From contig JAQUVQ010000004.1 in the NCBI GenBank assembly GCA_028693285.1, forward strand, positions 1,278 to 65,277: DNA of 64,000 bases. Direction: 5' to 3'. How positions within the stretch are numbered: the stretch's first letter is position 1; each line of letters opens with the position of its first letter. A program made the translations under genes and the position numbers. Shown one piece after another: positions 10,154 to 45,454 of this stretch. Source of the stretch: Smithellaceae bacterium (lineage in GTDB: Bacteria; Desulfobacterota; Syntrophia; Syntrophales; Smithellaceae). The notes under the pieces were generated by a model. The model saw only the letters and a program-made list of their open reading frames with translations. It did no database searches and was not told where the DNA came from.

Positions 10154-11281
10154 TCACTTCATCCGGCTTCGTTTGGAACAACCGCGGCATGAAGGATGCG
10201 GGGCGTCGTCGAATTCCGCCCGAAACTTCATGGCAGCGCGGCCGCTCCAGATTTCCGGCAGCGACTGCGGGCCAAGGCAACCGAAGATCAGAGAACGGTA
10301 TCCTTGATGAGCCCCGGATAGGTGATATGATTCCGTAACCGGTATGTTGGTAAATGCACAGGGGGAAACGCCGCCGGACGCCGAGATGAAAACCGCCCGG
10401 TGCGGATTTTCCGTGCAGTCCCCACTTTCCGCCTCCGGATCCACCAGATTGTAAAAAAGAGAAATGCCCTCCTTTTCCGCATCCCGGGCAAGTCTGTCGT
10501 AAAGTGACATCAATTCCCGGTACTGGCCTTTGTCCTCCGGTGCCAAACATTCCTTTTGCAGATTTTCGTTACAGGCGAAATCCAGGGTGCTGATCACGAT
10601 CTGCCGGATGCCGGTTCCGGCCAGCGCCGGTATCAGTTTATCGATGTCCGGCAAATGTGAACGCAGGAGCAGATACGCAACGCTGATGACCGGCGTGTGT
10701 TGTCGCCGTACCTTTTTTTCCGCGGCGAGTCCGGCAACCGCCTCGAGAACATTGGAAAAATGAGTGCCCCGGCGCGCCTCATCGTTTTGATCTCCCACAC
10801 CCGCGAGTGAGAAAGCAACCTGATCAATGCGGCTTTCGACAAGACGGACGGCCGCCCGTCGATCGAGTAGCTTTCCGTTGGTTGTGGTACCCACCATACA
10901 ACCGGCTTTTTTGGCCAGAGCAATCATGTCGAAAAAATGCGGATAAAGTAGAGGCTCACCCCAGCCCTGTAGGTGAACCATCCGCGTCCGTCTCAGAGCG
11001 GGAAGGAGCGACCGGAATATTGCCGGAGAAAGATCGCGGTCATTCCAAGAGGCGCAGTAAACCGTCCTGGGACAATAGCGGCAGGAGGCGTTACAGCGAG
11101 TGGTGATCTCGATCTGCATCCAGTCCAGTCGGGGCATTGCCTGATGCTCCCACCAGTCCCTGATACACCCGATCAACGACGATGTACCGAATTCCTCCAA
11201 GATACCTCCTGCTGAAACACCGCCCCTAGCGTCTGATTCCGGATTAATTTTATAGTCCATTTCTACTTGGAATTTTCTCAT
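10154..11281 (-). CDS. radical SAM protein with Cys-containing C-terminal (SPASM/twitch-like) extension
   Basis: CxxxCxxC motif in EITTRCNASCRYCPRT. GWGEPLL glycine-rich SAM motif. C-terminal cysteines (CTENP...SPC...CRGC). The first ~48 aa have no recognisable motif, so the start could instead be MPRLDWMQ. Confidence 0.85.
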   Translation of the reverse strand: MRKFQVEMDYKINPESDARGGVSAGGILEEFGTSSLIGCIRDWWEHQAMPRLDWMQIEITTRCNASCRYCPRTVYCASWNDRDLSPAIFRSLLPALRRTRMVHLQGWGEPLLYPHFFDMIALAKKAGCMVGTTTNGKLLDRRAAVRLVESRIDQVAFSLAGVGDQNDEARRGTHFSNVLEAVAGLAAEKKVRRQHTPVISVAYLLLRSHLPDIDKLIPALAGTGIRQIVISTLDFACNENLQKECLAPEDKGQYRELMSLYDRLARDAEKEGISLFYNLVDPEAESGDCTENPHRAVFISASGGVSPCAFTNIPVTESYHLSGAHQGYRSLIFGCLGPQSLPEIWSGRAAMKFRAEFDDAPHPSCRGCSKRSRMK

Positions 11282-13141: not shown

Positions 13142-14044
13142 CTAATTGCAGTGGTTGCAATGCTCCATCTCGCGGGAGGAAGACGGCAAAAGCTGGATAG
13201 TGGTGTGGTTGATGCCGTGAGTTTCGTGAAGGATTTTCTGCACGGCGCGAATGATTTGTTCATGATCGGGCGATTCGTTATCGGATAACAGATGCACGGA
13301 AAGCAGTTTCCGGCCCGTTCCGGTTTGCCAGATATGCAGATCGTTGACTTCGGCCACACCGGCAACGGAAAGCAAATCGCTCTTGACGGCATTGAAATCG
13401 ACGTCCGCCGGCACGGCATCCAGAAGCGCATTGACGGTATGCCGGATAATCTTGTAGATTTCGCGGGCAATGAAGATGCAGATGACCATGGATATAAGAG
13501 GATCGACAAAATATAAGTCAAAAAACGTAATCAGCAGAGCGCCGACAATCACGCCAAGAGAAAACAGCGCATCCTGAAGCGAATGAAGCCAGGCGCTTTT
13601 GATGTTGAAGTTCCGGGCCGATATTTTCTGCAGAAGCAGCGTGGCCGCGCTGTTTCCGACAAAAGCCACCACGGCAACCCAAAGCATCGTTGTGCCGGAT
13701 ACCTGCGCGGGTGAAAAGAGTCTTTGAACGGACTCCCAGAAAACAAAAGCAATCACCACCGACAGAACGATGCTGTTGACGAACGCAGCGATAAATTCCA
13801 TCTTGCGCCAGCCATAGGTTTTGTGTTGTGTCGCCGGACGCCGGGACATTTTTTCCGCCCAATAGGTAAAGCTCATGGCGGCAATGTCGCTCAGATTGTG
13901 AACGGCGTCCGAGATCAGCGCCATGCTTGAAATCAGCAGGCCGAAGATCATTTCAAAAACGACGATGCCGCCGTTGATGAGGATGGCCAGAATTAGATTG
14001 GCAAGCGATGCCGGTTTATTCTCCTGGTGATGATGAGGTTTCAT
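13142..14044 (-). CDS. cation diffusion facilitator (CDF) family metal efflux transporter
   Basis: His-rich N-terminus MKPHHHQ, SDAVHNLSD TM2 metal-site motif, C-terminal cytoplasmic domain, and a His/Cys tail EMEHCNHCN. Confidence 0.9.
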   Translation of the reverse strand: MKPHHHQENKPASLANLILAILINGGIVVFEMIFGLLISSMALISDAVHNLSDIAAMSFTYWAEKMSRRPATQHKTYGWRKMEFIAAFVNSIVLSVVIAFVFWESVQRLFSPAQVSGTTMLWVAVVAFVGNSAATLLLQKISARNFNIKSAWLHSLQDALFSLGVIVGALLITFFDLYFVDPLISMVICIFIAREIYKIIRHTVNALLDAVPADVDFNAVKSDLLSVAGVAEVNDLHIWQTGTGRKLLSVHLLSDNESPDHEQIIRAVQKILHETHGINHTTIQLLPSSSREMEHCNHCN

Positions 14045-14078
14045 AGGATTCTTCTTTCCTAAAAATGGTGATCTTCCG

Positions 14079-15269
14079 TCAACCCATAAGATAGCCGTAA
14101 GCCATCCCGGCCAGCGTGGACTGGATCACGACAATGGCACAGTAAACGACGGTTTTCTTAACGCCCATGATGCTGCCTATGGTGATCATGCTGGGAAGCG
14201 ACAAAGCCGGGCCGGCCAGCAAAAGCGCCAGCGCCGGTCCCTGCCCCATGCCGGAGCCGATAAGTCCCTGCAAAATCGGCACTTCGGTGAGTGTGGCAAA
14301 GTACATGAACGCCCCGACTACGGAGGCAAAGAAATTAGCCCCCAGTGAATTGCCGCCGACCAGCATCTGAATATACGATTCGGGAATCAGTGCCGGATAA
14401 CCGGGACGGCCCAGCAAAAAACCCGCCACCAAAACGCCGCCGAACAAAAGCGGAAGAATCTGCTTGGCAAAATCCCAGGTAGCCTGCACCCAGCCCTTGA
14501 GTTCATCTTTCACAAACCACTTTTTGAGCATGATACCCAAAACGACCAGCAGCCCCATCACCAAAAACCACTTGACGCTGAAAATCATGCGCCAGGCGCT
14601 TCCGTCATCCTCCGATGGCTTGGCAAACGAAGCAAAAACCAGAATCAGCACCATGACCAGCATATAAACGGCATCCTGCCACAGCGCCCTGCCCTTGCCT
14701 TCGTCTTCCGGCAGAAAGATCTCGCCCGTCTCCCGGTTGGCGTCGTCTTTGCGGAAAATAAACGCCATCAGAAGCCCCGTCACAATGGAAAAAATCACCG
14801 CGCCGATCGCGCGTGCAAGCCCCAATTGCCAGCCCAGCACCTTCGCCGTGAGAATGATCGCCAGAACATTGATCGCGGGTCCGGAATATAAAAACGCAGT
14901 CGCGGGGCCGATCCCCGCACCGCGCGTGTAAATGCCGGCAAAAAGCGGCAGGACCGTGCAGGAACAAACCGCCAGCACGGAGCCGGAAACGGAGGCTACG
15001 GAATAAGACAGGATTTTATTGGCTTTCGCGCCGAAATATTTGAGCACGGCCGCCTGCGACACGAACACGCTGATTGCTCCGGCAATGAAAAAAGCGGGGA
15101 TCAGGCAGGTAAGCACATGCTGGCGCGCATAGTCCTGAAGCATCATAAAGGCTTCCAGCCCCGCCTGACGAATCAGTACCGATTCCCACGGGATGTAAAA
15201 AGCGGCAAGAAAGATGCCGATAATCCATAATAATTTTTGCCATTCTTTCACAAGACAGATCCTCCTCAT
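14079..15269 (-). CDS. ArsP/UPF0718-type permease (second copy)
   Basis: Polytopic. LAVCSCTVLPLFAGIYTRGAGIGPATAFLYSGPAINV parallels the first permease's CSC motif. An alternative GTG start at 15251 has a better-spaced AGGAGG. Confidence 0.8.
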   Translation of the reverse strand: MRRICLVKEWQKLLWIIGIFLAAFYIPWESVLIRQAGLEAFMMLQDYARQHVLTCLIPAFFIAGAISVFVSQAAVLKYFGAKANKILSYSVASVSGSVLAVCSCTVLPLFAGIYTRGAGIGPATAFLYSGPAINVLAIILTAKVLGWQLGLARAIGAVIFSIVTGLLMAFIFRKDDANRETGEIFLPEDEGKGRALWQDAVYMLVMVLILVFASFAKPSEDDGSAWRMIFSVKWFLVMGLLVVLGIMLKKWFVKDELKGWVQATWDFAKQILPLLFGGVLVAGFLLGRPGYPALIPESYIQMLVGGNSLGANFFASVVGAFMYFATLTEVPILQGLIGSGMGQGPALALLLAGPALSLPSMITIGSIMGVKKTVVYCAIVVIQSTLAGMAYGYLMG

Positions 15270-15314
15270 TTCCTTAAACTGTGCCGTTGACCTTCTTTTT
15301 CAAGATATACGGCG

Positions 15315-15911
15315 CTACATTTGCTTCAGGGCTTCTTCCAGCCACTGCCGTATTTTTTTCTTTTCCGGCATCGTTCCCACTGAAGCCACTTTCTGATTAA
15401 TCACCAGCGCGGGCACACCCATCACCCCGTATTTGGCAATCTCACGTGGATCGGTAACATGAACCATTTCTCCCGGCGCGTTCATTTCAGACAGAACATT
15501 GCGCACATCGTTTTCCAGGCTACTGCAATTGGCGCAGCCCGGCCCCAGAATGATGACTCTGAGGACGCCGCCGGTTTCTTCCTCTTCCACCGGTTGCCCA
15601 AGAAACATTCGGAACTCGCGGACCAAAGCCCTGGCATAAAGGGGTTTGGCGCTTGCGGGAATGTAATTTTTACCCCCAAGCCTTTTGATCATTTCCGCGC
15701 CGATGGCTTCATCGGAGTTGCGGCTGAAGTCAGGCGCCATAGCCGCAATCACACTTTTCAAGCCGACGATGCCGACCAGATTGCCTTTGACACGTATTTG
15801 CGTCACTTCGTTTTCGGACATGTTTTCTATCTTTCTTCTTTTCCGCTCATCGTTGAATTCGGTTTCAAATAACCAATCTTTTTTTCCTTGCCCCCCACCG
15901 AAGGGCTTCAT
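15315..15911 (-). CDS. fusion protein: unknown N-terminal domain + Trx_3 (redox-active disulfide protein 2-like) thioredoxin fold
   Basis: The C-terminal ~80 aa, VIILGPGCANCSSLENDVRNVL...GVMGVPALVINQKVASVG, parallels the stand-alone protein at 20098..20331 (GTGCAKC...GVMTTPGLVVDG). I do not recognise the N-terminal ~110 aa. The start may be ATG 15821. Confidence 0.7.
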   Translation of the reverse strand: MKPFGGGQGKKDWLFETEFNDERKRRKIENMSENEVTQIRVKGNLVGIVGLKSVIAAMAPDFSRNSDEAIGAEMIKRLGGKNYIPASAKPLYARALVREFRMFLGQPVEEEETGGVLRVIILGPGCANCSSLENDVRNVLSEMNAPGEMVHVTDPREIAKYGVMGVPALVINQKVASVGTMPEKKKIRQWLEEALKQM

Positions 15912-15919
15912 TTTACCGC

Positions 15920-16168
15920 TCAGGTACCGCCGAAAAGCGGAATACCTCCCCGCAGGGATATCTCCCCGGCAAAACCGACCGCTATTTTATCGCCGTCCAC
16001 TATGACGGGCACCTGCATCTTGCCGCCTGAATAGGCCAGCATTTCTTCGAGTTTTTTCGGGTCTTCGCTGACATCGATATAGACAGCCTTGTCGCCATAG
16101 GCTTCACGAGCCTGAATGCAAAAGGGTCACATGTCTGTCCCGTAAATGATAATTTTTTCTTTTGTCAC
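15920..16168 (-). CDS. glutaredoxin-like selenoprotein candidate (in-frame TGA = Sec at codon 14)
   Basis: Not in the ORF track. GTG 16168 has AGGAGAGG upstream. The frame is open for 82 codons except for TGA at 16127..16129: MTKEKIIIYGTDM-U-PFCIQAREAYGDKAVYIDVSEDPKKLEEMLAYSGGKMQVPVIVDGDKIAVGFAGEISLRGGIPLFGGT. The TGA replaces the first Cys of the Grx CPxC motif. The Grx/NrdH-like core (IIIYG, VPVIVDG..GF) continues downstream of the TGA. Confidence 0.75.
16094..16119 (-). promoter_or_regulatory. candidate bacterial SECIS hairpin
   Basis: RNA is 5'-GCAU-UC-AGGCU-CGUGA-AGCCU-AUGGC-3'. The 5-bp apical stem starts 13 nt after the UGA. The 5-nt loop contains GU, and a lower CAU/AUG helix follows a 2-nt bulge. 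Confidence 0.55.
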
Positions 16169-16196
16169 ATTGCCTCTCCTAATCGACATGGGTCTT

Positions 16197-16649
16197 TTAT
16201 CTTTTCATTTCAAACATAAAATCTTTTGCCTTGTCGCCGCGCAGATATTCGGCAAGCCCAAGAAGGCCGTCGGTCAGATATTTTGATTGATACCCTTGAA
16301 GTTTCAGGTACGTGCGGGCAAGTTCGGCACGGTCGTAGTGAGGACAGGCCGTGACAACGATCTTCGCCTTATCCAGTTCGTCGAGTCTGCCCGGTAATTC
16401 GTTTAGCGGAATGTTTTTGATAAAACCGAAACTGTAAGCCTTGTATTCTTCCGGGAAACGAACATCAATGATCTGTACTTTGCCCTGATTGTATAGTTTC
16501 AGCATTTCAACGATGCCGGTTTTCATCTCCCTGCGTTCCCGATAGTCGAAACGTTTGAGGTAATTTTCAAAGGTTACGCCATCGGCGGCTGATAAGGAAA
16601 ACGGCATAACAAGTGAAAGGACGATCAGCAAAATGCCTTTTGTTCTCAT
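16197..16649 (-). CDS. exported rhodanese-domain sulfurtransferase
   Basis: Signal peptide MRTKGILLIVLSLVMPFSLSA. Single rhodanese domain with active-site loop CPHYDR (six-residue loop type). Confidence 0.8.
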   Translation of the reverse strand: MRTKGILLIVLSLVMPFSLSAADGVTFENYLKRFDYRERREMKTGIVEMLKLYNQGKVQIIDVRFPEEYKAYSFGFIKNIPLNELPGRLDELDKAKIVVTACPHYDRAELARTYLKLQGYQSKYLTDGLLGLAEYLRGDKAKDFMFEMKR

Positions 16650-16687
16650 GACGAATTCCTCTGAACAAAATAACCTGGTTTACGTTA

Positions 16688-17311
16688 TTATTTCACAGTC
16701 CAAAGATGCGCTTTGAATTTTGTCAGTCCATCCCAAATTTCATCGTCACCAACATATTTCTTTATATCTTTGGCAGAATATTTAATAACGCAAGTGGGTG
16801 TCGCATCAACCTTGTGCTCTTTGATGACGGCGCTTAAATGCGGAAAGACGGACTTTTCATTCATGGCTTTCCACGCAGTATTCTTTTCTTTAAGAAAAGC
16901 GACCAGCGCGTTTTCATCCTGAACGCGGCGGCCCTGAGCCGCCTCAAAAAGAACATTTCGGACATGAAGTGCGTTGTTTATGCCGGCATCCGCTTTCACC
17001 GCATACAGGTAATATTTCGCGTAAGTCGGCGTGGCGCGGTTAAATGGAACATCGACAAACGTCAACTTAACTTTTTCCGACGCCACCAGCTCTTTGAACA
17101 AGCCTTCGGCTTTGGCATCAATCCGTTTGCAGGGAGGACAGAAATAATCGGCAAATATAATCACTTCATAAGGCCCCTGTCCCCAGGACGGAATACCCTG
17201 TCCAACAGTCTGCCCGTAAGCAGGGGTCACGGAACCGGAAAACGTCAGCAAAATGGTCAAATGCCCCATCAAACTCACGAGCAGCAATGGGAATCTTTTA
17301 AGTTTCAACAT
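16688..17311 (-). CDS. exported DsbA-like thiol:disulfide oxidoreductase
   Basis: N-terminal signal/anchor, then the thioredoxin-fold motif FADYFCPPCK. ATG 17311 is preferred over the track GTG 17323. Confidence 0.75.
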   Translation of the reverse strand: MLKLKRFPLLLVSLMGHLTILLTFSGSVTPAYGQTVGQGIPSWGQGPYEVIIFADYFCPPCKRIDAKAEGLFKELVASEKVKLTFVDVPFNRATPTYAKYYLYAVKADAGINNALHVRNVLFEAAQGRRVQDENALVAFLKEKNTAWKAMNEKSVFPHLSAVIKEHKVDATPTCVIKYSAKDIKKYVGDDEIWDGLTKFKAHLWTVK

Positions 17312-17329
17312 TGAAGCATTCACCTCAAA

Positions 17330-18376
17330 CTACTTTTGAAAATACTTCTCCTGAAATCTCAGCGCCACCATGACCAGGCCGATCATCACCGGCACTTCCA
17401 CCAGCGGGCCGATCACTGCGGCGAACGCCGCGCCGGAGTTGATGCCGAAGACGGCGATGGCCACGGCGATGGCCAGTTCAAAATTATTGCTGGCCGCCGT
17501 GAAAGCCAGTGTCGTGGTTTTGGAATAATCGGCACCTAGCTTATTCCCCATGTAAAAAGACACAAGGAACATGACCACAAAATAGATTAAAAGCGGTATG
17601 GCGATGCGCACGACATCCAGCGGGAGTTGGATAATCAGATTTCCCTTGAGACTGAACATGACAACAATCGTGAACAACAACGCAATGAGGGTAAGCGGAC
17701 TGATGATAGGCACGAAGCGCGTGTGATACTTTTCTTTTCCCATAACCTTTACGCCGGCCAGACGCGTCAGCGCACCCGCGATGCAGGGAATGCCCAGATA
17801 GATGAAAACGCTTTCGGCGATTTGACGGATGCTGACATCGACGACACTGCCCGAAAATCCAAAGTAAGGCGGCAGGATCGTAATGAAAAACCAGGCAAAC
17901 ACACTGTAGAAAAGCACCTGAAAAATGCTGTTGAAGGCAACCAGGCCGGCGGCATACTCTGTATTGCCCTTGGCCAGTTCGTTCCAGACGATGACCATGG
18001 CGATACAGCGCGCGAGCCCAATCATTATGAGGCCCACCATGTAGTCGGGTTTATCCGGCAAGAACACAATCGCCAGAAAAAACATCAGGACAGGCCCGAT
18101 CAGCCAGTTTTGGACCAACGACAGGCCTAGGACCTTTCCATTGCGGAAAACTTGAGGCATTTCCTCGTATTTCACTTTGGCAAACGGCGGATACATCATC
18201 AGAATCAGGCCCACCGCAATGGGAATATTGGTGGTCCCGACTTGAAATGAATTGATAAAGGCCTCCGTGCCGGGAATAAAATAGCCCAGCCCCACACCAA
18301 GAATCATAGCCGCAAAAATCCATACGGTCAGATAACGATCCAGAAATGACAATTTTTGTCCGATATGCTCCGTCAT
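17330..18376 (-). CDS. acr3: ACR3 family arsenite efflux transporter
   Basis: [13 protein letters not shown]...[22 protein letters not shown] is the Acr3 signature. ATG 18376 (MTEHIG) has AGGAGG 5 nt upstream; the track TTG at 18394 is unlikely. Confidence 0.92.
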
Positions 18377-18386
18377 GGAAATCCTC

Positions 18387-18803
18387 CTATGCAATATTTA
18401 AAAAGTAATTCGTTATTTTATCTATGATCTCGTCGCGTACGCGCCGGAATTCCCACAGTATGTCTTCCGGGCTTCCGGTGGCTTTGGCCGGGTCGTCAAA
18501 ACCGATATGCGTTTTTTTCGTTCCGCCGATGTAAAGCGGACAGGTTTCGTTGGCGTCCCCGCACAGGGTAATTACAAAATGGAATGTCTGTCCGTCAAAC
18601 TCTGACAAATGCTTTGAGCGATGATGTGAGATATTCACGCCGATTTCCTTCATCGCCTTTATGGCCGTCGGATTCACAAACGACGCCTGCGTTCCCGCGG
18701 AAAAAGCTTCCAGTCGGTCGCCCAAAAAATGATTTACAATGCCTTCGGCCATTTGAGACCGGCTGGAATTGGCAGTGCATAGAAATAAAACACGTTTCTT
18801 CAC
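18387..18803 (-). CDS. arsC: arsenate reductase, LMW-PTP/thioredoxin-coupled type
   Basis: P-loop CTANSSRS (CX5R) and the downstream Cys pair LCGDANETC, with the spacing of the Trx-coupled ArsC class. GTG start 18803 has AGGAG upstream; the track start 18911 overlaps ccdA. Confidence 0.9.
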
Positions 18804-18811
18804 AAAATCTC

Positions 18812-19519
18812 CTAAATCCAGTTCAACGCAATCAAATAAACGCCGCCCAGAATCACCAGCACACCACAGATCTTTTTCAGAATGACCGCACCTTTGGAAT
18901 TCTCCGTCCAATGCAGGTAATGCTGCACGACTTCCGTAAACGTTCCCGCAAAAATCAGCACGGCACAGTGGCCGACGGCAAATGCCGCCAGAATCAACAT
19001 CGCCAGAGTCAATTGTGTTGACGCTATACTAAATACTACGCCCAGCATTGTCGCCATATAGGCGAACGTGCAAGGGCCCAGCGCAATGCCGAAGATCAAG
19101 CCCAGAATAAACGCCGCGAGAAATCCTTTCCTTTTATAATTCGGGTTTGCACCGCCTTCCATGAAAGGCAACGGCATAATCCCCAGCAGATTCAAACCAA
19201 CGGCGAAGAAAACCACGGCTACAAAATAGCTTCCGTAACCGCCGATATCCCCCATCATTCGGCCCACCAGCGCCGTGATCAGACCGATCATGCCAATCGT
19301 AATGAGAATGCCGAGGCCGAAAAACAAAGACAGGACAAAGGCCCGGCCCGTGCTGATATTCCCCTGACCGTCGATAAAGCCGACAATCAGAGGAATACAG
19401 GCAATATGGCAGGGAGAAAGAATTATGGACAGAATGCCCCAAATCAACGCCGCACCGATGGCGATGCCTGGCGACTGCGTGAGCGCCGCCGTCAAAAACG
19501 TAAAGAGGTCAACCAGCAT
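18812..19519 (-). CDS. ccdA: CcdA/DsbD-family transmembrane thiol-disulfide electron transporter
   Basis: Six-TM protein with a Cys in TM1 (ILSPCHIACIPL) and a second Cys (GPCTFAY). Abuts the upstream thioredoxin gene with no gap. Confidence 0.85.
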   Translation of the reverse strand: MLVDLFTFLTAALTQSPGIAIGAALIWGILSIILSPCHIACIPLIVGFIDGQGNISTGRAFVLSLFFGLGILITIGMIGLITALVGRMMGDIGGYGSYFVAVVFFAVGLNLLGIMPLPFMEGGANPNYKRKGFLAAFILGLIFGIALGPCTFAYMATMLGVVFSIASTQLTLAMLILAAFAVGHCAVLIFAGTFTEVVQHYLHWTENSKGAVILKKICGVLVILGGVYLIALNWI

Positions 19520-19960
19520 TTATTTGACCCCTCCCTTTTTCAAAACCTCCACAACGCCTTCCTTGGGGAAATACCCTTCATGCCTGTAGTATTCCTTTCC
19601 GTTGATATCCAGGAATACCTGAGTAGGAATAACGCGAATATTATATTTCTCGGCGTCCATCCTCCCTTGCTGCGTCCAGACATCGTGAAAAAGAACAACC
19701 ACCTGTCCCTTGTATGTCTCCGACACTTCTTTCATAATGGGCTGCATGGCCTTGCAGGGAATACATCTGGCGGCACCGATTTCTACAAACGTCACACGGG
19801 GTTTGAAAACAGAAGGGTTGGCCCCCGCTCGTTCTTTGGATGCGTCTGTTTTGGCTGCCTGTTTATCCTGAGCCCATACCCCCGCGCCCAGTGAAAGAAA
19901 GATCAGTGTAAAAACCGCCCATACCGCCAGTCCCCCCAAGATTTTTAAACGCAAAGTCAT
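19520..19960 (-). CDS. exported TlpA/ResA-like thioredoxin
   Basis: Signal anchor MTLRLKILGGLAVWAVFTLIFLSLGAGVWA, then a thioredoxin fold with active site ARCIPCK. Confidence 0.8.
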   Translation of the reverse strand: MTLRLKILGGLAVWAVFTLIFLSLGAGVWAQDKQAAKTDASKERAGANPSVFKPRVTFVEIGAARCIPCKAMQPIMKEVSETYKGQVVVLFHDVWTQQGRMDAEKYNIRVIPTQVFLDINGKEYYRHEGYFPKEGVVEVLKKGGVK

Positions 19961-20097
19961 AGATTTCCCCCTGATTTTATTTTAGTCTGATCCATCATAT
20001 CCTTTAAATATGAATCCTGAAATACAATAGGATGTCAGGAACACAGGGTTGCTTTGAAAAAAACACATCCACAGCAATTACTTAATCGGACGGCCGC

Positions 20098-20331
20098 CTA
20101 CCCCTTGATCCAGCTTTTGATCTGCTCCGCTGTCGGCATTTTACCCGCAATTTTCACCTGGCCGTCCACGACCAGGCCGGGCGTCGTCATTACGCCGTAG
20201 GTCATGATCTTTTTAATGTCCTTTACCTTCCACACCTCGGCTGAAACGCCGGTTGTTTTAACGGCCTCGTTCACCAGTTCTTCAAGTTTTATACATTTTG
20301 CACAGCCGGTTCCCAATATTTCAATCTTCAT
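20098..20331 (-). CDS. Trx_3 family small thioredoxin-like protein (redox-active disulfide protein 2-like)
   Basis: 77 aa, MKIEILGTGCAKCIKLEE...GVMTTPGLVVDGQV. The ATG overlaps the arsR stop (ATGA). Confidence 0.8.
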   Translation of the reverse strand: MKIEILGTGCAKCIKLEELVNEAVKTTGVSAEVWKVKDIKKIMTYGVMTTPGLVVDGQVKIAGKMPTAEQIKSWIKG

Positions 20332-20672
20332 TCCAACCTCCTATTTTTGCAGGATTTCATTATTTTTTTATGTTCTTCTGCGTTGGCGGCCAGCACATCT
20401 TCGACACAGCCGATGAAATCCAGAATGCAGGTGCAGCGAAGCGTGTAGTAAATGCAGTTTGCCCTCTTTTCATCCGTCACCAACCCTGCGTTTTTCAGCA
20501 CGCTTAAATGCTTGGACACCGTCGAAACATCCGCGCCGACCATCTCGGTCAGCTCGTTCACACAGCGTTCCTGCTTTTGCAGCTCTTCAATGATCAGCAG
20601 ACGACTCGGATGCGCCATCGCCTTGAGAATTTTTGCCCGGGCTTCATAACGGGGCTTGATGGAATCTTTCAT
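20328..20672 (-). CDS. arsR: ArsR/SmtB family transcriptional repressor
   Basis: HTH core AMAHPSRLLIIEELQKQERCVNELTEMVGADVSTVSKHLSVLKNAGLV. ATG 20672 (MKDSIK) has GGAGGG 8 nt upstream. The track ATG 20702 lies inside the predicted -10/operator. Confidence 0.85.
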   Translation of the reverse strand: MKDSIKPRYEARAKILKAMAHPSRLLIIEELQKQERCVNELTEMVGADVSTVSKHLSVLKNAGLVTDEKRANCIYYTLRCTCILDFIGCVEDVLAANAEEHKKIMKSCKNRRLE

Positions 20673-20692
20673 CAGACGTTCCCTCCATTCGT

Positions 20693-20728
20693 ATTTGGCC
20701 ATATAGCCAAATAGCCATAATGAGTCAA
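20693..20728 (-). promoter_or_regulatory. arsR promoter with overlapping palindromic operator
   Basis: Minus strand reads TTGACT (20723..20728), a 17-nt spacer, then TATATG (20700..20705). The 20-bp palindrome ATTTGGC-tatatg-GCCAAAT (20693..20712) is centred on the -10. Confidence 0.55.
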
Positions 20729-42486: not shown

Positions 42487-43758
42487 TTATTTCTTTCCCA
42501 GCCGGATCGCGCAGAATTCGCCGCACATGGTGCAGCCTTCCTCATTCGCGCTTTTGCTCTTTTCAAGGAGCGCGGACGTTTTGTCCGGGTCAAGGGAGGC
42601 TTCCACCTGCCCCTGCCAGTCAAATTTCCTGCGGCACTCGGACATTTTCCGGTCCCGCTCAAAAGCGCCCGGGATGCCTTTGGCAATGTCGGCAATATGC
42701 GCGGCAATCCGCGCAGCCATCACGCCGTCGCGGACATCGGCCAGCGTGGGCAGACGCAAATGCTCGGCCGGCGTCACGTAGCACAGAAAATCCGCGCCTG
42801 CGGCGCCGGCAATCGCACCGCCGATGGCGGAAGTGATATGGTCGTAGCCGGGCGCAATGTCCGTCGGAAGCGGCCCCAGAACATAAAACGGAGCGCCCTG
42901 ACATAATTTCTTCTGAAGTTTGATGTTGGCTTCCACTTCGGTAATCGGCACATGACCGGGCCCTTCAATCATCACCTGCACACCGGCGGCGCGGGCGCGG
43001 GCGGCCAATTGCCCTAAAATAATTAACTCCATCAGCTGCCCCTGGTCGGTCGCGTCATGGATGGCGCCTGGCCGCAGGCCGTCCCCCAGGCTCAAAACCA
43101 TATCGTAGCGGCGGGCAATGTCCAGAAGCCGGTCATACTCCTCGTACAGCGGATTTTCCCGGTCGTTGCATCGCATCCAGTTGGCCGTCATCGAACCGCC
43201 CCGGCTGACGATGCCCAATACTCTTCCCTGTGCTTCCACGGCAGCCACGCTTTCACGATTGACGCCGCAATGCACGGTGATGAAATCAACGCCATCGCGT
43301 CCGTTCTCTTCGATCACCCCAAACAGATCATCCGGCGTCATTTCTGAAATCGCTTTTTTCTCTTCCAGTGTTTTTACCGCCGCCTGATAAATCGGCACCG
43401 TGCCGATGGCGACGCCGGACTTGGCCATTACGGCCTTGCGAATGTCCGCAAGATTCCCGCCGGTCGAAAGATCCATCACGGCATCCGCCCCCGCCGCGAT
43501 CGCCACGGACAACTTCTCCAGCTCCAGCTTCAAATCCTGATTGTCCCTGGACGTTCCGATATTGGCGTTGACCTTGGTGCGCAGCCCCAGACCGATCGCC
43601 AGCGGCTCTATGGCCGTGTGGTTTATATTGCGGCAGATCACGATGGTGCCATCGACGATGCCCTGTCGGATGGCTTCCGGCGAAACGCCTTCCCGGGCCG
43701 CACTCTGTTTCATTTCCTCGGTGAGAACGCCCTTTCGGGCTTTTTCCAACTGCGTCAT
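42487..43758 (-). CDS. thiC: phosphomethylpyrimidine synthase
   Basis: Full-length ThiC, including the C-terminal [10 protein letters not shown] cluster motif. ATG 43758 overlaps the thiD TGA. Confidence 0.95.
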
Positions 43759-44579
43759 GACTTCTTCTCCTTTTTTACCCCGAAATCCCCCCACAGATTC
43801 ACCGGACCGTGGCCCCTGCCCAGTGACAGCGAATGCTGAATGGCCCTTTCGGTCATCCTCTTCGCCTGCCGGACGGCCTCCTGCGTCCCGCGCCCCTGCG
43901 CGAGACAGGACGCCAGCACCGAAGCAAAGGTGCAGCCGGTTCCGTGGGTGTTTTTCGTTTGCGTCCATTTTGCCGCAAACATATCATACCGAAGGCCGTC
44001 ATAAAGAATATCCACGCAGCCCCGGGTCTTTCTTCCGGGAAGGTGCCCCCCCTTGACCACCACCCGCTTTACGCCTAAATCCGAAAGGACGGCGGCGGCT
44101 TTTTTCATATCCTCCACGGAACGGATTTTCATGCGCGACAGAAATTCGGCCTCCGGAATATTCGGCGTCAGAACGTCCGCCAGCGGCAGCAGCGTTTTCA
44201 CGAGCGCCCGCCTGGCCCTGTCGGTCATCAAAGAGCGCCCGCCCTTGGCGATCATCACCGGATCGACCACGATATTTTTCAGCCGGTATTGTTTGATCTT
44301 TCCGGCCACCGTCTCCACCGCTTCCGGCGTCATGAGCATTCCGGTTTTGACAGCGTCCGCGCCGATATCCTCCAGCACGGAATCCAGTTGGGCCGCTATC
44401 CATTTGGGCGGAACGGGCAAAACGGACTGCACCCCCCGTGTATTTTGCACGGTCACCGCGGTAACGGCGCACACGGCGTAACCGCCGCAGGCATGAACCG
44501 CTTTCAGGTCCGCCTGAATCCCGGCCCCGCCGCCGGAGTCCGACCCGCCGATGCATAAAATTCGGATGGGCTTTCCCAT
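43755..44579 (-). CDS. thiD: hydroxymethylpyrimidine/phosphomethylpyrimidine kinase
   Basis: [20 protein letters not shown] and the GTGCTFAS motif. Confidence 0.92.
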
Positions 44580-45251
44580 TCAGTCCGCCTCCGGAAAAAA
44601 ATCTTTTTGCCGGTAGCGAATGACCAGCAGATGACCCGAGCGAAAACGAATGCGGGCGCGCTCTGCGGCAATGATGTTGCTCACGCCGCGCGATTCGGAA
44701 AGTTCAAAGGTTCCTTCCTCGAGCGGATAAGCAAATCCCTCCAGCGTAACGCCTTCCACGCGGGGCGAAAGCGCCAGGAGGGAAACGAGGCAGCCTTTCC
44801 TGTTTTCAAAGACCGCATCATCAACGGGCACAAAAACTTCACAGTATTCATCCAGCAGACAGGCGGCAACACCCGCTTCCTTCGCCCGGACCAGCAAAAA
44901 CAAATTGGCCAGAGCATGGTCGATTCTTCCGCCCAGCGCCCCCCAGATCTGAATCCTTTCGGGCTTCAGACCCAGAGCGTAATCCAGGGCCAGAGCCGTA
45001 TCGGTAAAATCTTTGTCGGCCGGATGCTGAATGATTTTCACACCCCTGCGCACATAATCCGCCAGACGGGAAGATTCAATAGAATCCATATCGCCGACCA
45101 GCACATCCGGTGTAACCCCGGCTGCCGCCAGATGACGGGCGCCGCCGTCACAGCCAATCAACAAATCGCTTCCTGCCTCCGACATTTTCTTCCGGAAAAA
45201 GTCCATGTCGCCAAGACGCCCGCCGCTGATAATGACAATGCACCGATTCAT
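44580..45251 (-). CDS. thiN: thiamine diphosphokinase
   Basis: IVIISGG...GCDGG...GDMDSI motif and the C-terminal TPK B1-binding domain. Its stop abuts the thiD ATG. Confidence 0.85.
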   Translation of the reverse strand: MNRCIVIISGGRLGDMDFFRKKMSEAGSDLLIGCDGGARHLAAAGVTPDVLVGDMDSIESSRLADYVRRGVKIIQHPADKDFTDTALALDYALGLKPERIQIWGALGGRIDHALANLFLLVRAKEAGVAACLLDEYCEVFVPVDDAVFENRKGCLVSLLALSPRVEGVTLEGFAYPLEEGTFELSESRGVSNIIAAERARIRFRSGHLLVIRYRQKDFFPEAD

Positions 45252-45301: not shown

Positions 45302-45324
45302 TGGAATTGTCTTTAGAATGATTG

Positions 45325-45417
45325 CCACTCCCTACGCCGGCATTACCCGGGTCAGGTTCAAAGGGTATATTCTCAGCCGTTTCTTTTCCGGCCTGAAAAA
45401 GGAGCGGCACCCCGTGG
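45325..45417 (-). promoter_or_regulatory. TPP (THI-box) riboswitch aptamer
   Basis: Minus strand reads CCACGGGGTGCCGC...GGCTGAGAATATACCCTTTGAACCTGACCCGGGTAATGCCGGCGTAGGGAGTGG. It has the conserved GGGGUGC, CUGAGA, ACCC, GAACCUGA, UAAUGCC and GCGUAGGGA blocks, with P1 formed by CCAC/GUGG. Confidence 0.9.
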
Positions 45418-45454
45418 ACGAAAAGTAGTACATTAACCGCCAAAAAGCAACGGA

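What the first reader, a model, noticed from the sequence alone, without database searches (positions are those of the whole stretch)
15920..16168. Hidden glutaredoxin-like selenoprotein: in-frame TGA at the CxxC position plus a SECIS-like hairpin
The ORF track leaves a 285-bp hole between the rhodanese gene and the Trx_3-fusion gene, inside an otherwise tightly packed operon. On the minus strand, GTG 16168 (AGGAGAGG upstream) opens an 82-codon frame whose only interruption is TGA at 16127..16129. The conceptual product is MTKEKIIIYGTDM-U-PFCIQAREAYGDKAVYIDVSEDPKKLEEMLAYSGGKMQVPVIVDGDKIAVGFAGEISLRGGIPLFGGT, a complete glutaredoxin/NrdH-type fold. The TGA falls exactly where the first redox Cys of CPxC belongs, giving UPFC. 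Recognisable Grx sequence continues well past the TGA, which argues against a simple stop. Thirteen nt after the UGA the mRNA can form AGGCU-CGUGA-AGCCU with a lower CAU/AUG helix, and a GU sits in the apical loop, as expected of bacterial SECIS elements. Sec-for-Cys replacement in thiol oxidoreductases is a known theme in deltaproteobacterial and clostridial selenoproteomes. Automated callers miss such genes, and this copy sits inside an ars/thiol-redox island, which is unusual.
Basis: partly seen in the sequence, partly recalled or inferred. Interest (0 to 1): 0.8.

Follow-up and report, generated by a model that had tools for sequence, protein, structure and literature searches.

The report
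Double-selenocysteine glutaredoxin-like gene, arsenic operon
The unannotated gap holds a real small glutaredoxin-like gene that most likely carries two selenocysteines, not one; it belongs to an already catalogued family (UXX-star family 1) and sits, as its relatives usually do, in an arsenic-resistance operon.

Summary
On the minus strand, GTG 16168 opens a glutaredoxin-like frame with TGA (16129..16127) where homologues have the first Cys of CPFC.

Comparative data support Sec at this site. Of 70 distinct orthologues from Syntrophales, Syntrophorhabdus and Smithella genomes, 49 have TGA and 21 have TGT/TGC. Both flanks show coding-type conservation. The 5-bp SECIS stem is intact in 47/49 TGA copies but only 4/21 Cys copies.

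The supposed stop (15922..15920) is TGA in 83/83 relatives, while the real stop further on uses all three stop codons. It is followed by a conserved short tail (here A-V-K, true stop 15910..15908) and a strongly covarying hairpin with a GGU loop (15906..15890). Distant relatives have Cys at this column. The product is therefore 86 aa: ...GTDM-U-PFC...PLFGGT-U-AVK.

The product scores above the curated cut-off of NCBIfam NF041114, "UXX-star selenoprotein family 1", which a 2026 review lists with two Sec residues. The family is known. This copy belongs to a long-tailed, UPFC-type, ars-linked subclade.

The Sec machinery could not be checked in the window. The function (arsenic-related selenol relay or As(III) ligand) is inferred.

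The parts
16173..16180 (-). Shine-Dalgarno-like AGGAGAGG upstream of the GTG start
   Evidence: Read directly from the sequence.
15908..16168 (-). Full coding sequence of the glutaredoxin-like double selenoprotein. It has 86 residues plus the stop: MTKEKIIIYGTDM-U-PFCIQAREAYGDKAVYIDVSEDPKKLEEMLAYSGGKMQVPVIVDGDKIAVGFAGEISLRGGIPLFGGT-U-AVK-stop.
   Evidence: This is the only frame in the window's intergenic gaps with good coding scores on both sides of a single TGA. Public gene calls for the same organism list only a 32- or 40-aa fragment here.
16127..16129 (-). Sec codon 1 (UGA), codon 14, at the first position of the U-P-F-C redox motif
   Evidence: It aligns with Cys of CPFC/CPYC in all full-length homologues. 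Among 70 distinct orthologous copies it is TGA in 49 and TGT/TGC in 21.
16087..16126 (-). SECIS-1, inside the coding sequence. Upper stem AGGCU 16113..16109; loop CGUGA 16108..16104; AGCCU 16103..16099. The lower helix lies within 16126..16118 and 16095..16087.
   Evidence: It folds as described. It meets the published bSECIS criteria: 5-bp stem, 5-nt loop with G at position 2 followed by U, 18-nt spacing, MFE -13.1 kcal/mol. All five upper pairs form in 47/49 TGA copies against 4/21 Cys copies. The Ala codon is GCU in 47/49 against 3/21. Compensatory pairs occur in L006, L025 and L080.
15920..15922 (-). Sec codon 2 (UGA), codon 83.
   Evidence: It is TGA in 69/69 long-tail copies and in 14/14 further relatives. 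In the same 69 genes the true stop is TGA 35, TAA 20, TAG 14. The column aligns with TGA-read-as-W translations and with Cys in distant relatives P0160, P0189 and P0185.
15908..15919 (-). C-terminal tail codons GCG-GTA-AAA (A-V-K) and the true stop TGA (15910..15908). This stop overlaps the ATG (15911..15909) of the 198-aa downstream ORF.
   Evidence: Across 69 copies the first codon after the UGA is a small residue (P/S/A/T, NCN) and the second is Val. The variation has codon periodicity: heterozygosity 0.39/0.08/0.50 at positions 1/2/3.
15890..15906 (-). SECIS-2, lying 3' of the true stop. Stem GCCCUUC 15906..15900; loop GGU 15899..15897; stem GGGGGGC 15896..15890.
   Evidence: Hairpin energy -8.7 kcal/mol, 7 bp, G-first loop, 20-nt spacing from the UGA; about 3% of TGA triplets in the window do as well. 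The helix is conserved in 69 sequences, with 77 compensatory cells against 26.5 +/- 10 in shuffles (0/500) and 8-40 in slid controls. No T-run follows it, so it is not terminator-like. It has the same architecture as the SaoC SECIS: a 7-bp stem and GGU loop after UGA-UAG.
13142..20702 (-). The surrounding ars/thiol-redox operon. ArsR 20702..20328; small Trx_3 20331..20098; periplasmic Trx 19960..19520; DsbD_TM 19519..18812; LMWP-type ArsC within 18911..18387; Acr3/SBF 18394..17330; DsbA-like 17323..16688; rhodanese 16649..16197; the Grx-like selenoprotein; Trx_3 fusion 15911..15315; ArsP permease 15269..14079; CDF 14044..13142.
   Evidence: Pfam hits, ORFs, and the same gene set in related loci.

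Best explanation
Identity: window 16168..15908 (-) encodes an 86-residue cytoplasmic glutaredoxin-like protein with two selenocysteines. It is a member of the catalogued UXX-star selenoprotein family 1 (NCBIfam NF041114, 'Distant Grx-like protein 1').

Supported by comparison:
- UGA-1 (codon 14) replaces the first Cys of the CxxC motif. It would be recoded by a small SECIS hairpin within the coding sequence, 13 nt downstream.
- UGA-2 (codon 83), formerly read as the stop, would be recoded by a second, stronger hairpin (7 bp, GGU loop). That hairpin lies just beyond the real stop, four codons later.
- The Grx core lacks the usual last helix. It ends instead in a Gly-rich, poorly ordered arm (SLRGGIPLFGGT) that carries the terminal Sec.

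Inferred mechanism:
- The mobile C-terminal selenol swings onto the active-site U14/C17. It acts either as the resolving partner (selenenylsulfide or diselenide relay, analogous to the C-terminal GCUG arm of animal thioredoxin reductase) or as a third soft ligand.
- The gene is embedded in ars operons and most often abuts Acr3, so I commit to an arsenic-specific role. My rough estimates are: capture of As(III) between U14, C17 and U83 with hand-over to the Acr3/ArsP exporters, about 0.4; electron donor that recycles the LMWP-type ArsC, about 0.3; a more general redox role, the rest.

The confidence of 0.8 below refers to the identity as a two-Sec selenoprotein of this family, not to the function.
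For: Site 1:
- More than 90 full-length homologues have CPFC/CPYC at the TGA column.
- 49 distinct genomic copies have TGA there, with a conserved N-terminus (IIIYGTDx-U-P[F/Y]C).
- Both flanks show the codon-position signature of coding sequence.
- The SECIS stem is kept through synonymous-site choice only in TGA copies: 47/49 against 4/21; GCU 47/49 against 3/21, although GCC is the preferred Ala codon elsewhere in the same genes. The loop has G[G/U] in 49/49 TGA copies.
- Compensatory changes are present.

Site 2:
- TGA is invariant in 83/83 copies, against mixed true stops in the same genes and 20/14/10 TGA/TAA/TAG among 44 window genes.
- The tail after it is conserved with codon periodicity.
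- The hairpin covaries and fits the bSECIS consensus N1-G-[G/U]-N-N2 as C-GGU-G.
- There is no terminator-like T-run.
- Cys occupies this column in P0160 (...GTCGV), P0189 and P0185. Translations that read TGA as W show both sites.

Family:
- NF041114 scores 85.1 bits against a cut-off of 72.
- The review table lists this family with 2 Sec.
- '-star' denotes the C-terminus, and SaoC is a precedent for a SECIS placed after the stop.

Structure:
- Grx core pLDDT 80-90; residues 66-81 below 50.
- The nearest solved folds are A. fulgidus Grx-1, NrdH and C. oremlandii cGrx1.

Context:
- ars genes lie within 3 kb in 71/83 loci.
- Acr3 lies within 600 nt, on the same strand, in 33/68 loci; ArsC in only 3.

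Sec use in the clade:
- A HesB-like selenoprotein gene sits next to the orthologue in L005 and L006.
- S. aromaticivorans (L026, TGA at both sites) is reported to carry the SAO selenoprotein cassette.
Against: - No selA, selB, selD or tRNA-Sec lies in the 64-kb window or in the fetched flanks. The organism's Sec machinery is therefore inferred, not shown.
- Neither hairpin matches an Rfam family.
- SECIS-1 alone is no better than chance, and its covariation is limited because it lies in conserved coding sequence.
- The TGA and Cys copies fall largely into different clades. The 47/49 against 4/21 contrast is therefore not phylogenetically independent.
- Within the long-tail clade, no copy has Cys at site 2. 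The Sec/Cys pair comes only from distant relatives.
- The NF041114 profile aligns only to position 66 of 70, so the HMM does not itself cover the tail. The window has U-A-V-K-stop rather than a literal U-X-X-stop.
- The structure model has no confident position for the arm. Contact between U83 and U14 is conjecture.
- No tool here tests arsenic binding or redox partners.
Confidence: 0.8

Rival explanations
1. A single-Sec glutaredoxin. UGA-1 is Sec, the TGA at 15922..15920 is an ordinary stop, and the downstream hairpin is an mRNA-stability or processing element or a site of translational coupling.
For: No Cys substitution at site 2 occurs within the long-tail clade. The hairpin lies outside the reading frame as first defined. 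The number of residues after the TGA varies (2, 3, 7, 9...), which is unusual for a functional tail.
Against: TGA is invariant in 83/83 copies, while the next stop varies freely. The two codons after it show codon periodicity and conserved residues (small residue, then Val). The hairpin matches the bSECIS consensus and spacing. The column aligns with Cys in P0160, P0189 and P0185. The curated family is named for exactly this terminal Sec and is listed with 2 Sec.
Confidence: 0.1
2. A decaying pseudogene: a Cys-type glutaredoxin inactivated by a nonsense mutation.
For: True pseudogene copies exist in the family. Syntrophus buswellii DM-2 has TAA inside CPxC. L069 is truncated by a TAA after 16 codons, and homologous sequence continues past that stop.
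Against: The same TGA occurs in 49 distinct genomes with strong purifying selection on both sides. A clade-specific SECIS is maintained at synonymous sites. The SD sequence and start are intact.
Confidence: 0.02
3. Same gene product, different job: a dedicated reductant for the LMWP-type arsenate reductase ArsC or for the Trx_3 proteins of the operon. In this reading it is a classical thiol/selenol-disulfide exchange enzyme, not an As(III) ligand or chaperone.
For: An LMWP ArsC is in the same operon and lies within 3 kb in 29/83 loci. Among the closest solved sequences is Synechocystis GrxA (ssr2061). From my own knowledge, Synechocystis uses Grx to recycle an LMWP-type ArsC. The Sec form of Clostridium Grx is reported to be a faster oxidoreductase (review text).
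Against: ArsC is an immediate neighbour in only 3/68 loci, against 33/68 for Acr3. The resolving Cys of CxxC is dispensable in the family (T, A, V, G), while the terminal Sec is invariant. The short canonical forms lie outside ars loci. The review suggests a metal-ligand role for the Sec residues of this family.
Confidence: 0.3

Closest known systems
UXX-star selenoprotein family 1 (NCBIfam NF041114; 'Distant Grx-like protein 1' in the 2026 AEM review, PMC13188914)
   Same: Glutaredoxin-like core of about 65 residues. Sec at the first position of the N-terminal redox motif. A second Sec a few residues before the C-terminus, after ...G-G-T. The HMM score is above the curated cut-off (85.1 against 72). 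The columns align with the short canonical forms L081-L086 and P0156.
   Different: The canonical forms read U-P-Y-T ... VGYGGT-U-G-V-stop, are about 70 aa long, and in the loci seen here lie outside ars operons. The window clade differs in four ways:
- It keeps the second Cys (U-P-F-C).
- It has a 13-residue Gly-rich insertion before T-U.
- It ends U-A-V-K-stop. Relatives have 2 to 9 or more residues after U.
- It is tightly ars-linked.

The HMM does not align over the tail.
Selenoprotein glutaredoxin of Clostridium oremlandii (Grx1; Kim et al. 2011, cited in PMC13188914; Cys-form structure 7c10)
   Same: Small Grx fold with a U-x-x-C active site. It is among the best sequence and structure matches in the PDB.
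   Different: The Clostridium protein has a single Sec and a complete Grx fold. It works with selenoprotein MsrA. It has no C-terminal Sec arm and no ars context.
SaoC and KCU-star proteins (Haft & Gwadz, bioRxiv 10.1101/2022.07.06.499078)
   Same: Sec at or next to the C-terminus, read as a stop by gene callers. The SECIS is a 7-bp stem with a GGU loop placed just after the true stop. SECIS-2 here has the same design.
   Different: These are unrelated protein folds with a CU-COOH motif, found in a different operon (SAO).
C-terminal GCUG arm of animal thioredoxin reductase (from my own knowledge)
   Same: A penultimate-region Sec on a flexible C-terminal arm that shuttles between a buried redox centre and the substrate. 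This is the working analogy for U83.
   Different: The enzyme is a large flavoprotein with a eukaryotic 3'-UTR SECIS. There is no homology. The resemblance is functional and was not tested here.
ArsD arsenic metallochaperone (from my own knowledge)
   Same: A thioredoxin-fold protein encoded in ars operons that binds As(III) with three soft ligands and hands it to an efflux system.
   Different: ArsD uses three Cys residues and serves the ArsA ATPase. No sequence relationship was detected here. This is an analogy only.

Membership tests
UXX-star selenoprotein family 1 (NCBIfam NF041114) | Score at or above the curated whole-protein cut-off of the equivalog HMM | tested here: met
   82.8 bits (82-aa form) and 85.1 bits (86-aa form) against a cut-off of 72. 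Two relatives score 89.1 and 81.0. The aligned stretch covers profile positions 1-66 of 70 only.
UXX-star selenoprotein family 1 (NCBIfam NF041114) | Glutaredoxin-like fold | tested here: met
   Pfam PF00462 at 8.7e-10. The AF2 model of Cys-form homologue P0002 shows b1-a1-b2-a2-b3-b4. The best PDB matches are glutaredoxins and NrdH.
UXX-star selenoprotein family 1 (NCBIfam NF041114) | In-frame UGA at the first position of the N-terminal redox motif, aligned with Cys in non-selenoprotein homologues | tested here: met
   TGA at 16129..16127 aligns with Cys of CPFC. 49 TGA and 21 TGY copies. The same column is TGA in the canonical U-P-Y-T forms.
UXX-star selenoprotein family 1 (NCBIfam NF041114) | A second UGA near the C-terminus in the family's terminal Sec column | tested here: met
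   TGA at 15922..15920, invariant in 83/83 copies. It aligns with T-U-G-V of the short forms and T-C-G-V of P0160.
UXX-star selenoprotein family 1 (NCBIfam NF041114) | Literally two residues between the terminal Sec and the stop (U-X-X-stop) | tested here: inconclusive
   The window has U-A-V-K-stop, with three residues. Among 69 relatives the tail has 2 residues in 19, 3 in 13, 7 in 25, 9 in 7 and more than 9 in 5. The paper that defines the family (Haft & Tolstoy 2025) is not held. I therefore cannot tell whether the literal spacing is a defining feature or only the origin of the name.
UXX-star selenoprotein family 1 (NCBIfam NF041114) | Host genome encodes the Sec machinery (selA, selB, selC, selD) | not testable with these tools
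Indirect support: HesB-like selenoprotein genes next to the orthologues, and S. aromaticivorans carries the SAO selenoprotein cassette.
Bacterial SECIS element (consensus model of Zhang & Gladyshev, as summarised in PMC13188914) | Apical loop 3-9 nt; upper stem 4-16 bp; G in the first two loop positions; 16-37 nt between the UGA and the loop; MFE <= -7.5 kcal/mol | tested here: met
   SECIS-1: 5 bp, loop CGUGA, spacing 18 nt, -13.1 kcal/mol for the 45-nt element. SECIS-2: 7 bp, loop GGU (C-GGU-G), spacing 20 nt; -8.7 for the hairpin and -10.2 for 60 nt. They are permissive: 4.5-15% of random TGA triplets pass, depending on the energy threshold.
Bacterial SECIS element (consensus model of Zhang & Gladyshev, as summarised in PMC13188914) | Structure conserved among orthologous selenoprotein genes and lost in Cys orthologues | tested here: met
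   SECIS-1: all five pairs form in 47/49 TGA copies against 4/21 Cys copies. SECIS-2: 77 compensatory cells, 0/500 shuffles reach this value. SECIS-2 is present in all copies because all keep UGA-2.
Classical dithiol glutaredoxin (for example TIGR02181 Grx3) | Score above the equivalog cut-off, and a complete Grx fold with the C-terminal helix | tested here: not met
   TIGR02181 scores 34.6 bits against a cut-off of 90, and TIGR02194 NrdH 16.8 against 85.75. The model has no helix after b4; residues 66-81 have pLDDT below 50. The protein is Grx-like, not a classical Grx or NrdH.

The most novel reading that the evidence does not exclude
The long-tailed U-P-F-C ... GGT-U-x-V(-K) subclade may be a functionally distinct, arsenic-dedicated offshoot of the UXX-star family. 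It is found in Syntrophales, Syntrophorhabdus and Smithella, and in about half of the loci it is co-transcribed with Acr3. In this reading it is a selenoprotein As(III) chaperone that clamps arsenite between two selenols and one thiol (U14, C17, U83 on a 13-residue flexible arm) and feeds it to Acr3/ArsP. This would be the first selenium-based metalloid chaperone, and a case in which one short mRNA carries two SECIS elements of different placement: one inside the ORF and one 3' of the stop.
Probability: 0.25. Interest if true: 0.6.

Novelty: new member of a known kind. Interest (0 to 1): 0.4.

Why it matters
- **Annotation.** Public records of this common anaerobic-digester organism list only a 32-40 aa fragment here. 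Some databases hold versions with TGA mistranslated as Trp. Correcting both recoded codons restores an 86-aa product.
- **Recoding.** The gene shows compactly that a bacterial mRNA can carry two SECIS elements, one inside the ORF and one just past the stop. It also shows that a 'stop' that is invariantly TGA and is followed by a G/U-looped hairpin should be suspected of encoding Sec.
- **Arsenic biology.** The consistent same-strand linkage to Acr3/ArsP in syntrophic Desulfobacterota points to a selenium-dependent step in arsenic handling by anaerobes. That step has not been tested.
- **Limit.** The family itself is already catalogued, so the finding adds a well-documented member and a description of a subclade, not a new kind of system.

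Tried and rejected
- **Rfam.** The scan at gathering threshold over the whole window, and the permissive scan over 15800..16250, found no SECIS family. The only real hit is a TPP riboswitch elsewhere.
- **tRNA-Sec.** ARAGORN found no tRNA in the window or in 48 related loci.
- **Sec machinery.** Pfam scans of about 40 large ORFs across the window found no SelA, SelB or SelD.
- **Other selenoprotein genes.** A coding-score scan of intergenic gaps for other single-TGA read-through frames found only this gene. tblastn found no HesB-like selenoprotein gene in the window.
- **Single-sequence folding.** It does not separate either hairpin convincingly from shuffles: z about -1 for SECIS-1. I therefore rejected folding alone as evidence.
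- **RNAalifold on SECIS-2.** It returned only 5 weakly scored pairs. The explicit pair count was more informative.
- **Structure prediction.** The natural Cys-form homologue gives no confident position for the arm, so U14-U83 proximity could not be tested.
- **Literature.** The defining papers (Haft & Tolstoy 2025; the journal version of Haft & Gwadz 2023) are not in the library. The 2008 GOS paper has only generic 'Grx-like' rows.
- **Readings rejected.** Pseudogene, a TGA=Trp genetic code, and a terminator role for the 3' hairpin. In this window TGA ends 20 of 44 genes, and no T-run follows the hairpin.
Full report
**1. The observation**

- The minus-strand frame from GTG 16168 to 15920 exists as described. 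It has an AGGAGAGG Shine-Dalgarno sequence upstream and one internal TGA at 16129..16127. Its translation is identical to the one quoted.
- It fills the 285-bp gap between the rhodanese gene (16649..16197) and the ORF starting at 15911.
- With U replaced by C, the product matches Pfam Glutaredoxin (8.7e-10).
- The hairpin AGGCU-CGUGA-AGCCU (16113..16099) forms in the minimum-energy fold. Its stability is unremarkable: z about -1. About 12-15% of the 2208 TGA triplets in the window are followed by a hairpin at least as good under the published bSECIS geometry.
- The sequence features are therefore real, but the hairpin in this one sequence proves nothing.

**2. Comparative evidence for Sec at the CxxC position**

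- A protein search returned more than 90 full-length homologues of 81-82 aa (60-86% identity). All have CPFC or CPYC at the TGA column. It also returned about 30 calls of 50-61 aa that start downstream of that column.
- The DNA behind three of the short calls has an in-frame TGA at the same column and a conserved N-terminus, IIIYGTDx-U-P[F/Y]C.
- A scan of one genome per species gave 80 loci, all from Syntrophales, Syntrophorhabdus, Smithella and unclassified 'delta proteobacterium' MAGs. Over all fetched loci, 49 distinct copies have TGA and 21 have TGT or TGC.
- Variation is concentrated at third codon positions on both sides of the TGA: 0.11/0.07/0.53 upstream and 0.17/0.12/0.51 downstream.

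**3. SECIS-1**

- The stem lies in the conserved peptide Q-A-R-x-A-Y, so amino-acid conservation confounds it. The informative sites are the synonymous ones.
- In TGA copies the Ala codon is GCU in 47/49, although GCC is the preferred Ala codon elsewhere in the same genes. This gives the fifth pair, U-A. In Cys copies the codon is GCG in 15/21 and GCU in 3/21.
- All five pairs form in 47/49 TGA copies against 4/21 Cys copies. The loop reads C-G-[G/U]-G-[C/A] in all 49 TGA copies but varies in Cys copies.
- Compensatory variants exist: L006 C-G, L025 A-U, and L080 with both A-U and C-G.
- Caveat: most Cys copies form one clade (Smithella-like), so the contrast is not phylogenetically independent. 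Three Cys copies nested among the Sec forms (L013, L014, L033) still keep the stem.

**4.

- NCBIfam placed the protein above the curated cut-off of NF041114, 'UXX-star selenoprotein family 1' (82.8 bits against 72).
- In Haft's nomenclature, '-star' means the C-terminus.
- I then examined the 'stop'. It is TGA in 69/69 long-tail copies and in 14/14 further relatives. The next stop in the same 69 genes is TGA 35, TAA 20, TAG 14. The 44 Pfam-supported genes of the window end in TGA 20, TAA 14, TAG 10.
- After the TGA come a small residue (P/S/A/T) and a Val, with codon-periodic variation. Then comes either a stop or a few more codons.
- In the window the sequence reads TGA-GCG-GTA-AAA-TGA, that is U-A-V-K-stop. 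The true stop is at 15910..15908.
- About 13 nt after the TGA, every copy has a GC-rich hairpin with a GGU, GUU or GUG loop. Its stem sequence differs between genomes but stays complementary: 77 compensatory cells against 26.5 +/- 10 in shuffles (0/500), and 8-40 in slid controls.
- The window's version is GCCCUUC-GGU-GGGGGGC (15906..15890): -8.7 kcal/mol, 20 nt from the UGA.
- It fits the consensus N1-G-[G/U]-N-N2. It is not followed by a T-run.
- It has the same design as the SECIS described for SaoC, where a UGA is followed directly by the real stop.

**5. Sec/Cys pair at site 2 and the structure of the family**

- A profile search of 1.84 billion representatives found 909 relatives.
- Many end exactly at ...GFGGT or ...GYGGT, which means they are truncated at the TGA.
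- Several were translated with TGA read as Trp and display both sites. P0156 reads KLS-W-PYT ... GFGGT-W-GV. P0132 reads SS-W-PYT ... GYGGT-W-GV-W....
- Distant relatives have Cys at the terminal position: P0160 ...GFPGT-C-GV, P0189 ...GY-C-GI, P0185 ...RY-C-AV. The alignment puts all of these in the window's two columns.
- The short canonical form (L081-L086) is G-U-P-Y-T ... VGYGGT-U-G-V-stop. This matches the review's entry for NF041114: motif UxxT, 2 Sec.
- Intermediates have U-P-F-G, U-P-Y-V, U-P-F-A and U-P-Y-A.
- The terminal Sec is thus universal, while the second Cys of 'CxxC' is dispensable.
- The window clade keeps that Cys. It has a 13-residue Gly-rich insertion before T-U, and one or more extra residues after U-x-V.
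- The NF041114 profile aligns only to position 66 of 70, so the tail is outside what the HMM scores.

**6. Structure**

I therefore modelled a natural Cys-form orthologue (P0002) with 71 aligned homologues.
- The core b1-a1-b2-a2-b3-b4 is confident. Residues 66-81 (the arm) have pLDDT below 50, and there is no C-terminal helix.
- The best PDB matches are A. fulgidus Grx-1, NrdH and C. oremlandii cGrx1.
- The arm is consistent with a mobile Sec-bearing tail. Its contact with the active site was not shown.

**7. Context and organism**

- The gene lies in a minus-strand operon with ArsR, two Trx_3 proteins, a periplasmic Trx/DsbD_TM/DsbA-like/rhodanese module, LMWP ArsC, Acr3, ArsP and a CDF transporter.
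- ars genes lie within 3 kb in 71/83 related loci. The exceptions include all the short canonical forms. One of those, L083, lies beside cNMP-binding, rubrerythrin and nitroreductase genes.
- Acr3 is the commonest immediate same-strand neighbour (33/68). ArsC rarely is (3/68).
- The identical rhodanese protein of the window is recorded in 267 blocks of the public-assembly index. The contigs shown come from ENA and JGI metagenome assemblies and from NCBI MAG GCA_040766315.1. Gene callers there list only a 32- or 40-aa fragment at this site.

**8. Sec machinery**

- No tRNA gene and no SelA, SelB or SelD lies in the window. None lies in the flanks of the related loci. No other selenoprotein candidate lies in the window's gaps. 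This refutation criterion stays open.
- Indirect support comes from three observations:
  - The orthologue in L005 and L006 sits next to a HesB-like gene with an in-frame stop codon (codon identity not checked) at the known QPG-U-GGP site.
  - S. aromaticivorans, whose copy (L026) has TGA at both sites, is reported to carry the SAO selenoprotein cassette.
  - Conservation of two TGA codons, each with its own hairpin, in about 50 genomes is hard to explain without Sec decoding.

**9. Mechanism**

- Supported by comparison: two UGA codons, each followed at bSECIS distance by a conserved hairpin, inside a purifying-selected Grx-like gene.
- Inferred from established knowledge of bacterial Sec insertion: SelB with Sec-tRNA binds each hairpin and recodes the UGA. 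For UGA-2 the element lies beyond the stop. From my own knowledge, work on E. coli fdhF SECIS elements showed this is allowed when the spacing is kept.
- Inferred from the anatomy: the terminal selenol on the flexible arm cooperates with U14 (and C17) as a resolving or ligand residue.
- Inferred from the context: the substrate is arsenic-related. I estimate an As(III) clamp and hand-over to Acr3/ArsP at about 0.4, a reductant for ArsC at about 0.3, and a general redox role for the remainder.

**10. Verdict**

The gene is a double, not a single, selenoprotein, and it belongs to a family already in NCBIfam and in a 2026 review.
- It is a new, previously unannotated member. It represents a long-tailed, ars-linked subclade whose description in the primary paper I could not check.

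Noticed in passing
L005:7138-7437 (+) and L006:2974-3273 (+): Close downstream of the Grx orthologue lies a gene that callers split into 32-aa and 59-aa ORFs. It is a HesB/IscA-like selenoprotein (...QPG-U-GGPKLGMALDE..., ending GGCC). It matches the catalogued HesB-like 'UxGP' family. No copy is in the window (tblastn).
   Followed up: partly
L077:3027-3038 (Syntrophus buswellii DM-2, NZ_CP175563.1): In this cultured strain the orthologue reads TGC-CCC-TAA-TGC. A TAA nonsense codon sits inside the CPxC motif, so the gene looks like a pseudogene there. It still keeps the terminal TGA-GCC-CTA-TAG and the hairpin.
   Followed up: partly
L069:28-120 (Syntrophales MAG POMEDNA-B44, second copy): This is a second copy in a MAG that also has an intact copy (L034). 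It keeps TGA-1 and SECIS-1, but the frame ends at a TAA 16 codons later and homologous sequence continues past that stop. It is probably a decaying paralogue or an assembly error.
   Followed up: no
Proteins P0122, P0128, P0131, P0132, P0137-P0139, P0146, P0147, P0153, P0156: Public protein collections hold versions of this family translated with TGA as Trp. They show W at both Sec columns and sometimes run on through the real TGA stop. This suggests contigs were called with genetic code 4 or 25 by mistake.
   Followed up: no
window 45312..45423 (-): A TPP riboswitch (Rfam RF00059, 64.8 bits) lies upstream of a thiamine gene cluster: TPK 45251..44580, ThiD-like kinase 44579..43755, ThiC 43968..42487.
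   Followed up: no
window 10154..11281 (-); L001:7789-8895: A radical SAM/SPASM protein recurs next to the ars genes. It follows Acr3 directly in L001-L004, and a homologue lies within 3 kb of the Grx in 11/83 loci. Its role in an arsenic operon is unexplained.
   Followed up: no
window 16197..19960 (-): The operon also encodes what look like exported thiol-redox proteins, alongside the cytoplasmic ars genes. The rhodanese starts MRTKGILLIVLSLVMPFSLSA, and the DsbA-like and Trx proteins have hydrophobic N-termini; a DsbD_TM/CcdA membrane protein accompanies them. This suggests a periplasmic redox branch of the island. Signal peptides were judged by eye only.
   Followed up: no
window 15821..15911 (-): The 198-aa Trx_3-fusion ORF as called starts at an ATG that overlaps the selenoprotein's true stop (ATGA), so it would contain SECIS-2 in its first codons. 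An internal ATG at 15821 (MSENEV...) is an alternative start that leaves the hairpin intergenic. Which start is used is unresolved.
   Followed up: no
L019:1796-2055 and L019:3000-3258: One Smithellaceae MAG contig carries two Cys-at-site-1 paralogues about 1.2 kb apart. Both keep the terminal TGA and hairpin.
   Followed up: no
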